Of a DNA stretch of 64,000 bases, positions 6,228 through 59,908 are shown piece by piece; the first letter of the stretch is position 1, and every line of letters begins with the position of its first letter. The stretch is from Octopus vulgaris (taxonomy: Eukaryota): positions 203,732,001 through 203,796,000 of the forward strand of contig OX597815.1 of the NCBI GenBank assembly GCA_951406725.2, in the 5' to 3' direction. The notes beneath the pieces are model-generated. The model was not told the DNA's origin and searched no databases. It saw only the letters and a list, made by a program, of their open reading frames with translations. A program made the position numbers and the translations under genes.

Positions 6228-6431
6228 GGCCGCGTGTGTACCGTTGGCGATTTTTTTACCTCTGTCTTCCCTTCTCTGGATCTTCCTTCTGGATCCCTTC
6301 TCCTATGTTTCCGACGAAGAGCTCCGCTCGAAACGTTAAACCCCCTTCTTCCCTTCTTTCCTGAGCGTCCAATAATACTATATTTGTTCCACGTCCTCAC
6401 GTTGTTGTGTTTTCTTGTTTGGATTAACTTC
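6228..6431 (+). mobile_element. Penelope-like terminal repeat, family P1, embedded in (TA)n
   Basis: Close homolog at 59702-59908. Contains a hammerhead-like motif. (TA)n on both flanks. Confidence 0.65.
6307..6341 (+). ncRNA. Minimal type I hammerhead-ribozyme-like motif (variant core)
   Basis: GTTT CCGACGA A GAGC tcc GCTC GAA ACGT T AAAC: stem I GTTT/AAAC, stem II GAGC/GCTC, palindromic ACGT. Confidence 0.5.
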
Positions 6432-6597
6432 ATATATATATATATATGTATATATATATATATATATATATATATATATATATATATATATAAATATACA
6501 CATACAGAGAGAGAGAGAGAGAGAGAGAGAGAGAGAGAGAGAGAGAGAGAGAGAGAGAGAAGAGAGAGACAGACAGAGATGTCGATGTATATACGTG

Positions 6598-6900
6598 TTC
6601 TTTTACTTGTTTCAGTCATTTGACTGCGGCCTTGCTGGAGCACCGCCTTTAGTCGAGCAAATCAATCCCGGGACTTATTCTTTGTAAGCCTAGTACTTAG
6701 TGTATTGGTTTCTTTTGCCGAACCACTAAGTTACAGGGACATAAACCCACCAGCATTTGTTGTCAAGCGATGTTGTGGGGACAAACACACAGATAAAAAC
6801 ATATACACACTCATATATATATATATATATACGGCGGATTTTTTCAGTTTCCCTCTACCAAATCTACTCACAAGGCTTTGGTCGGCTCTAGGCTATAGTA
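6598..6900 (-). mobile_element. SINE family A, head missing
   Basis: Reverse complement of the 1558-1983 body and tail; abuts the CR1-like fragment. Confidence 0.85.
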
Positions 6901-7590
6901 GTTAATTTCGTAATGTAGGCTCATCTGGAATCCTTGATAGCAGGCGATCCAGTTTTATTTTAAAGACACCTACATCTAGACCATGCATGTCACCAAGACA
7001 TTTGGAAGGATATTGAAGAGCTGTGGGCCCATGAAACGCAAGCAGTTGCAGTATCTGGTCCTGTAATTTGATGGCAATGCTGGGATCTTTGACACTCGCA
7101 GTAGTGCCCCATTCTGCTGTTTGTGTAACTTTCAATGCCAAAGTTTAGAGCAACGCCTTCCAGGATTTTCCAGATGTATATCACTGCATATCTTTCCAGC
7201 TTTCGTTCTAAGGAGGAGAGTTTTAATTTTTTTTGCCTTCCGTAGTATCTGATATGTTGCATTGAGACGACTCGCTTTGTGTAGCTTCGAGTTCCTTCGT
7301 AAATTTCATACTGTGTGGTGATCATAGTTGGGAGCAGTAGTCCAAGCGGCTGAGGATGTATAGCTTCCAAAGAACCATCATAGTTTCCCTTCTCTCGTTT
7401 TGAAAGTCTGGAGGATCCATTCAGACAGCTGTCTGCCTTTTTATTACCAAATTGGTAATCATTGCTCATGTCAATGCCCAGGTCACGCACTAATTTTGAT
7501 TCGGGGATTGAACTTCCTCTCGGGCTAGTGAATCCTGTCTGCATGTCGTTCAGCTTTGTGCGTTGGTAGTGCAGGGCTTGGAATTTTCCA
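6901..7590 (-). mobile_element. CR1-like LINE ORF2 C-terminal fragment (frameshifted)
   Basis: VRDLGIDMSND; LKLSSLERKLERYAVIYIWKILEG; FKIKLDRLLSRIPDEP. Similar to 51652-52165. Confidence 0.8.
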
Positions 7591-7604
7591 ACATTAAACT
7601 GAAT

Positions 7605-7915
7605 ACTTGTATGTATGTGTATATGTATTTATATATGTCTATATGTATATATATGTACACGTACACATATATATATATATATGTATCTGTATATATATAT
7701 GCATATATACATATATATACATATATATGTATATATATATATATATATATATATATATATATATATATATATATATATACGCACATATACACATACATAT
7801 ATACATACATATATACATGTATATATATATGTATATATATATATATATATACATATATACACAAACACGCATATTTATATATGTATGTACACACACACAC
7901 ATATACTCACACATA
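7605..7915. repeat. Degenerate (TA)n/(TATG)n/(CATA)n array
   Basis: Direct inspection. Confidence 0.9.
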
Positions 7916-7916
7916 C

Positions 7917-56193: not shown

Positions 56194-56563
56194 TCTCTCT
56201 ATATATAAACGGCAGTTTGTCTGTGCGTGTTTCTGTGTGTCTGTTTGCTTGTACCCTCACCCTGACCACGGCTTTCAACCGATTCTGATGAAACTTGACA
56301 CACACATAGCCCAATGTCATAATTCAAAACTAACGCAGCGAAAATTTTGAAAAGTTCCCCCAGTTCTGAAAAAAATCGATAAAATCGACATGGGGTCGAG
56401 AATCAGAAACAAACCACAGACTGTCTAGGGGACGCAACTCAACCTTTTTTAACTAAAAAAAAATTTACCATAATTTTTTTGCTATTTTTTGGCTATAACT
56501 CTCTAAAAATGCTTTATAGTTATTTCCCTTACAAACCTGAGCAACGCCGGGCGATACTGCTAG
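56194..56563 (+). mobile_element. Non-autonomous Helitron sharing the H1 3' end but with a different body
   Basis: A|TC..tatatataaa start; 3' gagcaacgccgggcgatactgCTAG|T. Confidence 0.8.
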
Positions 56564-58167
56564 TATATATATAAATGTGTGTGTGTGTTTATGTGTTTAT
56601 ATTCATATGTGCCTGTGTGAATATAAATCCTATTGGATTGATATCGGTAACAGTAGTGTTGTTAACTCACATGTTGTACACGAATTATCAAACGTTCACA
56701 TTATCCACACAACTAACTCTTCTGAATTGTAGACTGTGTGGCGTTAATGATTTTCTAAAAAGTATCAAAGTAGACTATGAGTCAGAATGGAAACCGCACT
56801 GGAAATTTGTCTTTTGCTGGATATCTAAAACTCGACATTCTTCTAAACAGAAAGTGACGTGACAAGAGTCTCGTAATTAGGTAGCCAATGTAAACAATCG
56901 TTTACAAATGAAGAAATAAATTTAAAAATATGCTTTGCAGCGAATTCTGATCACTTTGCTCTCTGCTTGTCTTGTGTCATTATACAAAGGAAAGGCTAAC
57001 TAGTGCAATGTGAAGACCCAGAGGAGCTGAACGCTAAGCTACTCGTAAAACAGGGTTACCAGGTACACTGTCAGTCCATAAAAAAAAAGGAGAAAAATTC
57101 GAGTGAAAGCTGTGTCAAGTTAATCGTAATAGAATGTTCTTCCCATAGTATATTCCACTGACACAATTTACTGACGTTGAAACTCTATCTCGCAGAAGCA
57201 AACAGAAAAACATATATCGTATGTTATCGTATGATATGGGAGGCAAATGGCCGCTTTATACTTACATACATACGTACATACATTCATACATGCATACATA
57301 CATACGCACTTTTATATATTTATGTATAATGCTTAGATTTATATATGCATATATGTCTCCATATATATGTATGTATCTGTAGTTACATATATTAAGTTGG
57401 CTATATTCAAACCTTTCCATTTTCTTCATATTATACTATATATATATATATATATATATATATATATATATATATATATACGTTTAAATATTTGTTGTGC
57501 AAGATTTATTGGCTAAACTGGCAATATGACCATTCCGAAATATAACAATATATATATATATATATATATATATATATATATATATATATATATACCTACA
57601 TGTATATGCATAAATCTATAAGTATAAATATCTAGTTCTGTATGTATTTGTATATATATATATATATATATATATATATATATATATATATATATATATA
57701 TACAGCCTTAACGTATACTATCAAATATATAATCTGGGTTAAGTGGTGTCTTAAGTATGTGTACAAACTAAAATATTTTACCATTCCAATGATCCGAATC
57801 ATGAAAGAAACAAATAAGAAAATAATGAAAACATATAAGTACAGGCATTATTAGAAATTTTGTTGAACGTTTTTATTTCTGATTTAATTAAGAATTATTA
57901 CATAGGCACAAGGACAAATTAATTGGGGAGAAATTAATTACAACTAATACTCTTTTCAGTTAATGACTGGTGTTTTTATTTTTTATAATTATTTTATCAG
58001 TATCAGAAGGATGAAGGACAGTGATAACAGCGGTAAGATTCAGCTTTAGACCGTAAAGGTACATCACAAAAAATTGTGAAACATTTTGTCCGTTAATCTA
58101 CCATTTCCCTATTAATAAATGTATTTCCAATCAATAGCGTGTCACGTTAATTTCCATGTTTTATCTA

Positions 58168-58550
58168 ATGAGCGAAACATTACAATCGTGAAATACAGGC
58201 GGCCGAAATTGGAGGTTTCTACAAAGGATTTCTGAATTAACGTTACTCGATAGAGTGCGTAGTATGAAGGTCATGGAGGCCATTGAGAGGTTACCGCTCC
58301 GTTACTACGGATATCTGATTAGAATGTTGCATGAAAGATTTGTAATGCGAATTCGTCAAGCCGAGCTAATCGGCAGGGTACCTAGATGTAGTTCTCGAAC
58401 AAGATGGCTGGGTAATATCCATAGCCTCAGTTGATCACGCTTGGGATCTAGCCGGAAAGTATATTGATAGTTTGTTCCGTGGAAGAGGTGACTGAGGACT
58501 CTACCACCAAAACACTCCTAGGAAAAGTGAACGGAAAAGATAGATGGATT
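58168..58550 (+). mobile_element. RTE-clade (Rex3/Expander-like) LINE fragment
   Basis: IQAAE..FLQRISELTLLDRVRS..IERLPLRYYGYLIRM...GRVPR..RTRW. Confidence 0.7.
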
Positions 58551-58870
58551 CAGAATTTTGAATCGTCTTGAAAATTTTGTTTTAGCATGTATTTTGGGAT
58601 ATATTAATTTCAATGATATTTTCTGTATCTAAATATGTTGATACAACAGAAACAATTGTTGGCTTTGCAAGGTGAATTCTACAATTAAAGATGTGATTTT
58701 CTTTATCCGTAGTTTTGCGATCTATATCTATCTATCTATCTATCTATCTATCTATCTATCTATCTATCTATCTATCTATCTATCTATCTATCTATCTATC
58801 TCTCTCTCTCTCTCTCTCTCTCTCTCTCTATATATATATATATATATATATATATATATATATATATATA

Positions 58871-59677
58871 TCCCCTCCCTCCTACATCCTCCCACCCAAC
58901 TCTCCACTCTTGCCCCGATTCCTACTTCTCTTCACCCCTACTCACTTAACCTCTTCTCTCTTACTCTCTTTCTCTCTTCTCACCTACTCTCTTTCTCTCT
59001 TCTCTCCTCCTCTCTCTCCTCACATACTCACCTTTCCTCTCCACCATAAGCCCATCCACCCCCTACACATTCCTACTCCACCTTCCCATCCCCCATCCTA
59101 TCCCACACACACTTTCCCACATACCCCACCTTTACTCCACCATCTACCTACCCACAAACCCCAACCCTCAGCCGAACCCACATACCACCCGTGATTTCCC
59201 CACTCTCGCCTCCCCCACTTCCCAACAACATCACACCACACCACACTACACCATACAACAATACACATCACATCACAACACACCACCCACACACCCATCC
59301 CCATATTTTCACACCTACACATACATACACGCACATGTCCAGACTACCAGCCCTCTTTCACACGCACATACATACTCTCTTATACACACACGCACCTTCG
59401 TGTTGGGGGCGGTCATCTCTACTTTATTATCTACCCTACTTTCCCTCTCGTATGTGATCCTTCTGCCCGAAGTCAGTCGCCATGATAGATCGTTAGCCAC
59501 TACACACATTCTTTTCTCTCCTTGTTTCTCGCCTTGTTTTTTCTGCGTCCCTTTCTGTAGAAGAGCGTAGGCTCGAAACGTAAAAGACTTTTTTTATTCC
59601 TGCACGTTATACTAATACATCTGTTTGTTTTGTACACCACCTGTCTTCGTTTTTTGTGTTTTTCGTAAACTCTTCCT
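58871..59677 (+). mobile_element. Longer P2 copy: C-rich low-complexity tract plus terminal repeat with hammerhead-like motif 59551-59586
   Basis: CTTT CTGTAGA A GAGC gtag GCTC GAA ACGT A AAAG. (TA)n flanks. Including the C-rich tract in the element is inferred. Confidence 0.55.
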
Positions 59678-59701
59678 ATATATATATATATATATATATA
59701 T

Positions 59702-59908
59702 TGACCGCGTGTGTATCGTTGGCGATTTTTTTCCCTCTGTCTTCCCTTCTCTGGATCTTTCCTTCTCCTATGTTTCCGACGAAGAGCTCCGCTCGAAACG
59801 ATAAACCCTCCTTCTTCCCTTCCTTCCTGAGCGTCCCATAATATTATATTTGTTCCACGTCCTCCCGTTGTTGTGTTTTCTCTTTGTGTTTTCATGTTTG
59901 GATTAACT
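59702..59908 (+). mobile_element. Penelope-like terminal repeat family P1, hammerhead-like motif 59772-59806
   Basis: Paralog of 6228-6431; (TA)n on both sides. Confidence 0.65.

What the first reader, a model, noticed from the sequence alone, without database searches (positions are those of the whole stretch)
6307..59806. Four minimal hammerhead-like folds with covarying stems but non-canonical cores in two Penelope-like repeat families
Seen: motifs at 6307-6341 and 59772-59806 (P1: GTTT-CCGACGA-A-GAGC-tcc-GCTC-GAA-ACGT-T-AAAC, the second copy ACGA) and at 56005-56042 and 59551-59586 (P2: CTTT-CTGTNGA-A-GAGC-gtag-GCTC-GAA-ACGT-A-AAAG). Stem I swaps G:C to C:G between the families, stem II is kept with different loops, and stem III is a palindromic ACGT. 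Known: Penelope-like elements carry minimal type I hammerheads with palindromic stem III that can act as dimers, and an extra A after CUGANGA occurs in some natural hammerheads. Inference: both copies of each family share the core deviation (U4>C in P1, A6>U in P2), so these may be a variant ribozyme class or a non-cleaving structural signal rather than random decay.
Basis: partly seen in the sequence, partly recalled or inferred. Interest (0 to 1): 0.75.

Follow-up and report, generated by a model that had tools for sequence, protein, structure and literature searches.

The report
Altered hammerhead cores in Penelope retroelements
These four motifs are the tail ends of two jumping-gene families that carry a known type of self-cutting RNA fold, each with one normally essential letter changed in most copies; one family spread very recently with the change, so the fold likely cuts only slowly, which has not been tested at the bench.

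Summary
The four motifs exist; two carry private damage. They lie in 3' pseudo-LTR ends of two related Penelope-like retroelement (PLE) families, linked here to RT + GIY-YIG ORFs. The fold matches the published minimal PLE hammerhead except at one core position. The changes are lineage-fixed, not decay. P1: C4 in 69 of the first 100 of 8,518 hits, canonical U4 in 26, mostly an older sister subfamily (47, 64). P2: U6 in 20 of 20 incidental copies and 30 of 30 protein-selected loci of a very young subfamily with intact ORFs (65, 73, 90). Across five U6 subfamilies only N7 and H17 vary (0 of 30 constrained versus 36 of 109 flank columns), so the fold stays under selection. No long insertion ends at the predicted cut (0 of 26; 18 run through). 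Best reading: attenuated, probably protein-assisted ribozymes; rival: a non-cleaving protein-binding fold. U4C and A6C are known elsewhere; I found no natural A6U, but could not obtain Lunse 2016. The scan's earlier notes hold other hammerhead families, not these variants. New variant of a known kind; cleavage untested.

The parts
6228..6431 (+). P1 pseudo-LTR 3' end (5'-truncated PLE copy) between (TA)n tracts; young C4 subfamily, 2.4% from its majority sequence
6307..6341 (+). Intact minimal type I hammerhead fold, U4>C core (C at 6312), extra A between 9 and 10.1, palindromic stem III, predicted cut after 6337
   Evidence: architecture as in PMC4209133 Fig. S3
55103..55148 (+). 3' tip of a third P2 copy, truncated downstream of the hammerhead
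55931..56139 (+). P2 pseudo-LTR 3' end between (TA)n tracts (subfamily with C7/U7), 6.1% from its majority sequence
56006..56041 (+). A6>U hammerhead fold with a private G10.1>T change that breaks stem II
58927..59676 (+). P2 copy with about 620 nt of pyrimidine/CA-rich 3' UTR upstream of the motif (A7 subfamily; last 200 nt 4.2% from majority)
59551..59586 (+). Intact minimal hammerhead fold, A6>U core (T at 59558), predicted cut after 59582
59702..59907 (+). P1 pseudo-LTR 3' end inserted in the (TA)n tail of the P2 copy
59772..59806 (+). U4>C hammerhead fold with a private U16.1>A change (59801), predicted dead

Best explanation
The motifs are minimal hammerhead folds in the pseudo-LTRs of two related Penelope-like retroelement families whose copying lineages fixed U4>C (P1) or A6>U (P2); they are likely slow-cutting ribozymes that would need the element's own protein and a second copy to fold, and the element is copied from RNA that is continuous across the predicted cut. 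Shown: position about 100 nt before the fixed 3' end and upstream of the next ORF; linkage to RT-CX4CxxC-GIY-YIG ORFs; lineage fixation; continued conservation of every other core and stem position; very recent spread of a U6 subfamily; no insertion ending at the cut. Inferred: two motifs pair through the palindromic ACGU stem III (for example the 5' and 3' pLTR of one transcript); weak cleavage, possibly with re-ligation to a unit-length circle, occurs at a level low enough to leave most 3' ends, which carry the priming site at the element's own short TA run, intact.
For: ORF link: L218 = pLTR(HHR)-RT-GIY-YIG-3'UTR-pLTR(HHR)-(TA)n for P1, L183 for P2; L371 has a 1,214-codon open frame with RVT_1 E 1.7e-7 and GIY-YIG E 0.007, below Pfam cut-off. 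Recent activity with U6: 150 of 150 listed EN hits at 99-100% identity, 0.64% mean pairwise divergence in 30 loci, U6 in 30 of 30. Selection on the fold: five U6 subfamily majority sequences differ at 0 of 30 constrained columns versus 36 of 109 flank columns (Fisher p 4e-5; 18 of 75 in the downstream flank alone), and the two variable motif columns are N7 (A,U,G,U,C) and H17 (A/U), the free positions of active hammerheads. In contigs of four runs under four organism labels, N7 and H17 vary while position 6 is not among the 40 of 46 variant rows shown. Literature: U4C lowers activity but allows viroid infectivity; A6C gives low, detectable activity (PMC3088659), strongly ion-dependent (PMC7151607); PLE min-HHRs cleave weakly as dimers (PMC4209133); the anole PLE HHR cleaves only with the PLE protein (PMC11167929).
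Against: No cleavage measured. Deep mutagenesis of a type III hammerhead found low activity for single mutants in the CUGA region (PMC9901934). No genomic footprint of cutting: 0 of 26 long insertions start at the upstream cut; short P1 copies starting at the cut (12 loci, C1-C9) are no more frequent than at a control TA microhomology site (21 loci, C1-C9). A small P1-lineage cluster has G17 (3 of 4 copies), which the NUH rule (recalled) predicts is poorly cleaved. In the anole PLE, catalytic mutants did not impair insertion in vitro. A protein that reads the hammerhead fold would also leave N7 and H17 free. Most sampled copies were picked by motif patterns, which inflates apparent conservation; the unbiased sets are small (20 incidental P2, 18 P1-type, 30 protein-selected from one subfamily). 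With 30-60 nt of flank, ViennaRNA gives stem II probability about 0 for both window P2 copies and 0.33-0.54 for P1.
Confidence: 0.5

Rival explanations
1. The variant motifs no longer cleave. The hammerhead fold is kept as a binding or dimerisation signal for the PLE protein that places reverse-transcription priming about 105 nt downstream; more-than-unit copies arise from read-through RNA or template jumps.
For: Several separate changes expected to hurt catalysis are tolerated in this lineage (C4 in two clades, U6, a G17 cluster). 18 of 26 long insertions and all junctions of a 4-motif tandem pass through intact motifs, none stops at the cut. Catalysis dispensable in vitro and no RNA ends at the site in the anole PLE (PMC11167929). 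Naiads spread without canonical HHRs (PMC8557442).
Against: G8, G12, the C3-G8 pair and a non-G H17 stay fixed in all five U6 subfamily majorities over many master replacements; positions 4 and 6 are the sites where low-activity natural variants are already known. Run-through copies are equally expected from a cleaved and re-ligated circle.
Confidence: 0.3
2. The variants are fully active in vivo because the PLE protein, the dimer context or a cation preference rescues U6 and C4; the changes are neutral or make cleavage strictly protein-dependent.
For: Protein-assisted cleavage in the anole PLE; A6C is rescued by Mn2+ more than 10,000-fold relative to Mg2+ in one ribozyme; the U6 lineage outnumbers canonical sisters (92 versus 6 of the first 100 of 22,908 hits, counted by eye).
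Against: Efficient cleavage of the 3' motif would remove the priming region unless re-ligation is efficient; no cut-defined 5' ends.
Confidence: 0.13
3. The motif is a functionless relic carried along by the master elements; its apparent conservation is a sampling artefact.
For: Most loci were selected by motif patterns; other stretches of the 3' flank are also conserved over 10-15 columns.
Against: Incidental copies and protein-selected loci show the same core; contig pile-ups show no listed lineage-level change in the P2 core except N7, H17 and the stem III CpG; variation falls on exactly the two free positions (p 0.002).
Confidence: 0.07

Closest known systems
Minimal type I hammerheads of metazoan Penelope-like elements (Cervera & De la Pena 2014, PMC4209133; read parts 1-2 of 4 of the text and parts 1-2 of 3 of supplement 2)
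   Same: pLTR location at both ends of the ORF, 4-bp stem I, extra nucleotide between 9 and 10.1, G10.1-C11.1, no real stem III but a palindromic 15.2-16.2, mostly solo truncated copies
   Different: Published consensus is CUGANGA-H; the core exception described is U3-A8. None of the Fig. S3 rows I saw has C4 or U6 (their descriptor required canonical boxes).
Natural hammerhead core variants U4C (viroid) and A6C (phage Bcep176) (PMC3088659, section 8 and passages; PMC7151607, parts 1-2 of 4)
   Same: Single changes at the same core positions; low but detectable activity
   Different: Those are rare single ribozymes with full stems; here the change is fixed in thousands to tens of thousands of genomic copies, position 6 is U, and there is no monomeric stem III
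Poseidon PAc element of the green anole (PMC11167929; section 3 part 2 and passages)
   Same: PLE with a pLTR hammerhead, AT-rich targets, reverse transcription starting inside the RNA, copies made from RNA intact at the site
   Different: PAc core has the tested C3/G8 pair and overlaps the start codon; here the ORF starts several hundred nt downstream, the protein has the CX2-5CxxC linker, and the 3' end sits at a short TA run of the element itself
Short-stem-III PLE hammerheads of Lunse, Weinberg & Breaker 2016 (not held; known from the citation and summary in PMC6765202 section 11 part 2)
   Same: PLE-associated, palindromic short stem III, cleave as dimers
   Different: Could not check whether C4 or U6 variants are listed there

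Membership tests
Penelope-like element (EN+, C-terminal GIY-YIG) | Single ORF with RT (DKG, YxDD) followed by GIY-YIG endonuclease | tested here: met
   L371 open frame, RVT_1 E 1.7e-7, GIY-YIG E 0.007; P1 copy L218 has the same domains in a broken frame, Pfam hits weak
Penelope-like element (EN+, C-terminal GIY-YIG) | Partial-tandem or tandem arrangement forming pseudo-LTRs; 5' truncation | tested here: met
   18 of 26 long P2 insertions are partial tandems; one array with 4 motifs at 4.47-kb spacing; L218 for P1
Neptune/Nematis-type PLE | CX2-5CxxC linker between RT and EN; (TA)n targets | tested here: met
   CX4CxxC before GIY-YIG in P1 and P2 proteins; (TA)n flanks; definition from PMC8557442
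Neptune/Nematis-type PLE | Placement in the Neptune clade by RT phylogeny | not tested
   No reference PLE proteins were fetched
Minimal PLE hammerhead | Stems I and II, G10.1-C11.1, extra nucleotide after A9, palindromic 15.2-16.2, pLTR position | tested here: met
Minimal PLE hammerhead | Canonical core CUGANGA | tested here: not met
   C4 in 69 of first 100 P1 hits; U6 in 129 of 136 aligned P2 copies, 30 of 30 protein-selected; canonical only in sister subfamilies
Hammerhead ribozyme | C3-G8 pair, G5, A9, G12-A13-A14, A15.1-U16.1, H17 not G | tested here: met
   Invariant across five U6 subfamily majorities and the young C4 subfamily; exception: small G17 cluster in the P1 lineage
Hammerhead ribozyme | Site-specific self-cleavage after H17 | not testable with these tools
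   Only assembled contigs were available; genomic truncation tests show no footprint
Rfam hammerhead families | Score at a Rfam hammerhead model | tested here: not met
   No hit at E<=10 in 59480-59900; the motif lacks a monomeric stem III
Non-LTR retrozyme | Non-coding tandem repeats of short hammerhead-bearing units | tested here: not met
   Window copies are dispersed solo ends; the tandems found include the ORF

The most novel reading that the evidence does not exclude
A recently transposing Penelope lineage has turned its hammerhead into a non-catalytic, or strictly protein-switched, RNA module: the catalytic-core fold is kept under purifying selection for recognition by the element's RT-EN protein, while A6>U (and, separately, U4>C) shuts off autonomous cutting that would destroy the priming end. 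That would be a natural 'pseudo-ribozyme' in more than 20,000 copies.
Probability: 0.3. Interest if true: 0.75.

Novelty: new variant of a known kind. Interest (0 to 1): 0.5.

Why it matters
What the hammerhead does for Penelope elements is an open question: it is nearly universal in their pseudo-LTRs, cuts poorly, and was dispensable in the one reconstituted system. This genome offers a natural experiment: canonical and variant cores in sister subfamilies with nearly the same flanks, an intact young protein to go with the U6 variant, and lineage-level evidence that the fold is still selected after a change at a 'conserved' core base. It also shows that descriptor searches requiring CUGANGA miss most hammerheads of these two families (8,215 canonical-core hits of all families against 22,908 hits of the 4-nt-loop pattern, mostly U6).

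Tried and rejected
Rfam scans: only microsatellite noise among listed rows, no hammerhead model. The repeat finder was swamped by microsatellites. No PLE protein remnant in the window itself (tblastn). The first PLE ORF found (L110/L151) belongs to another family, not P1/P2. 'Canonical P1 copies are only CpG decay of C4': rejected, CTG 26 versus CCA 3 of first 100 and a separate flank cluster; a few CTG copies inside the young clade, as in L218, probably are decay. 'U4C arose twice': two separated starred C4 clades, but a single C4 clade is not rejected (AU p 0.138). Root of the P2 tree is by midpoint only; that A6 is ancestral rests on the A6 copies being among the most diverged and on canonical P1-type relatives. 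Cut-defined 5' ends: none. Chimeras with a crossover at the cut site, which a ligated circle could give: none convincing (3 discordant of 192 assignable copies, all old or gapped). RNA data: no RNA holder listed; laying contigs showed no places where many molecules begin or end, which contigs cannot show. A DNA search with L070 returned mostly microsatellite hits. Thermodynamic folding does not favour the hammerhead in context; canonical sisters were not folded for comparison. Lunse 2016 not held. Literature searches for these variants found no natural A6U or PLE U4C; the octopus repeat paper PMC13282606 has no mention of ribozymes (passages).
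Full report
Observation. All four motifs are present. The copies at 6307-6341 (P1) and 59551-59586 (P2) are intact. The copy at 56006-56041 has a private G10.1>T and the copy at 59772-59806 a private U16.1>A. Each lies in a unit of about 200 nt flanked by (TA)n; the P2 copy at 59551 extends 5' to about 58927, and the second P1 copy sits in its TA tail. 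A relaxed minimal-hammerhead descriptor finds 2 hits in the window against a mean of 0.125 in 40 shuffles. The window lies in a 2.8-Gb assembly that I infer to be octopus-like from size, contig count and microsatellites. Exact patterns give 16,827 hits (3-nt loop II) and 22,908 (4-nt loop II), with 0 for reversed controls.

What the repeats are. Walking upstream linked both families to Penelope-like ORFs. L218 holds a P1 element in partial tandem: motif, RT, CX4CxxC linker, GIY-YIG, a 1.4-kb CA-rich 3' UTR, second motif, (TA)n; its frame is broken. L183 links P2 to the RT end and GIY-YIG. A protein search with the P2 endonuclease returned 150 listed hits, all 99-100% identical, many in open frames above 1,000 codons. 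L371 has a 1,214-codon open frame (RVT_1 E 1.7e-7; GIY-YIG E 0.007). The linker and (TA)n targets fit Neptune/Nematis-type PLEs (PMC8557442, passages); I built no RT tree. P1 and P2 ends are related, so only one stem I pair covaries between them; more distant families add two covarying stem II pairs.

The core changes are lineage-fixed. P1: of the first 100 of 8,518 hits, 69 are C4, 26 U4, 3 show CpG decay on the other strand and 2 other (counted by eye). Clustering 140 copies with the core masked gives a young C4 subfamily (79 copies, 4.5% from majority), an older canonical one (21 copies, 6.7%) and still older canonical ones (8.3%). A distant group of 13 copies also has C4 (91 of 140 rows in the tree); two origins are suggested but a single C4 clade is not rejected (p 0.138). 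P2: U6 in 129 of 136 aligned copies, 92 of the first 100 pattern hits (by eye), 20 of 20 incidental copies and 30 of 30 loci chosen by protein alone. Four of the 5 A6 copies fall among the most diverged group (98 of 136 rows in the tree). The youngest U6 subfamily has 0.64% mean pairwise divergence over 399 nt in 30 loci, so the variant is compatible with very recent transposition. Contigs of four runs under four organism labels show U4 at 22-26% of P1 depth and no listed alternative at P2 position 6 (40 of 46 rows shown).

The fold is still under selection. Five U6 subfamily majorities differ at 0 of 30 constrained motif columns and 36 of 109 flank columns (p 4e-5); the only variable motif columns are N7 and H17. 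With the oldest group added it is 1 of 30 versus 41 of 109. For five P1 subfamilies it is 4 of 30 versus 40 of 109 (p 0.015). Caveat: most copies were picked by motif patterns; the unbiased sets agree but are small. Against a strict need for cutting, a small P1-lineage cluster has G17 (3 of 4 copies).

No footprint of cutting in the DNA. Of 26 long P2 insertions (chosen from the 150 hits for long frames, two for double hits), 18 run 409-1,476 nt through the upstream motif, 8 stop 46-1,547 nt short of it, 0 stop at the cut. One array has four intact motifs with units differing by 2-5 substitutions. Internal junctions always carry the same short TA run at which terminal copies meet the target (TA)n, so priming is internal to a continuous template, about 105 nt past the cut (inference). 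Short P1 copies beginning at the cut (12 loci on C1-C9) are not more common than at a control TA site (21 loci). The template was therefore uncut, re-ligated or bridged by a template jump; these data cannot separate the three. RNA ends could not be examined.

Mechanism. I favour an attenuated ribozyme (0.5). U4C and A6C are known natural variants with low activity (PMC3088659; PMC7151607); PLE minimal hammerheads cleave weakly as dimers (PMC4209133); the anole PLE motif cleaves only with its protein, and cleavage was not needed for insertion in vitro (PMC11167929). Weak cutting would suit an element whose priming site lies just 3' of the cut. The main rival (0.3) is a non-cleaving fold recognised by the protein; full rescue in vivo (0.13) and a neutral relic (0.07) follow. 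Deep mutagenesis reports low activity for single mutants of the CUGA region (PMC9901934, passages), which limits how active these can be alone.

Novelty. The architecture is the published PLE minimal hammerhead. I found no natural A6U, and no PLE with C4 or U6, in eight searches or in the parts of the Cervera supplement I read (file 1 not searchable). The most relevant paper, Lunse et al. 2016, was not held and may list such variants. Earlier notes of this scan describe other hammerhead families in this genome and a U3-A8 variant elsewhere, not these. Verdict: new variant of a known kind; interest 0.5, mainly because it makes the role of PLE hammerheads directly testable.

Noticed in passing
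L153-L182 (e.g. G000:C1:4891027 region, L151:7028-8310): A separate young PLE family (open frames up to about 840-895 codons, 92-100% identical hits) has in its 3' UTR a hammerhead-like motif with the U3-A8 core, a 2-bp stem II and a 6-nt palindromic stem III; read by eye from 12 printed copies.
   Followed up: partly
L234:1643-1677, L243, L231, L225-L227, L239, L240, L248, L308, L041, L151:8479: An old family distinct from P1 that also has the C4 core, with C17 and a weak stem I (13 copies).
   Followed up: partly
L079, L081, L020, L294: P1-lineage copies with G at the cleavage position 17; three cluster together. One S. mansoni row in PMC4209133 Fig. S3 also has G there.
   Followed up: partly
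L371-L396: Upstream partial units of the young P2 family end between 409 and 1,476 nt before the cut in 18 of 18 cases, none closer and none further, whereas many single copies end about 40-180 nt before it. Unexplained; could reflect a transcript start region.
   Followed up: no
L075, L076, L272, L300, L304: Another repeated family with a canonical core and a 6-bp stem II with an 8-nt loop; ORF link not checked.
   Followed up: no
L218:203-2077 (minus strand): A further broken RT-endonuclease ORF of a different PLE-like family lies inverted next to the P1 element.
   Followed up: no
window:6993-7628(-), 29741-30172(+), 35542-35970(-), 51619-52044(+): Short open frames that look like retroelement fragments; no Pfam hit at E<=0.01.
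   Followed up: partly
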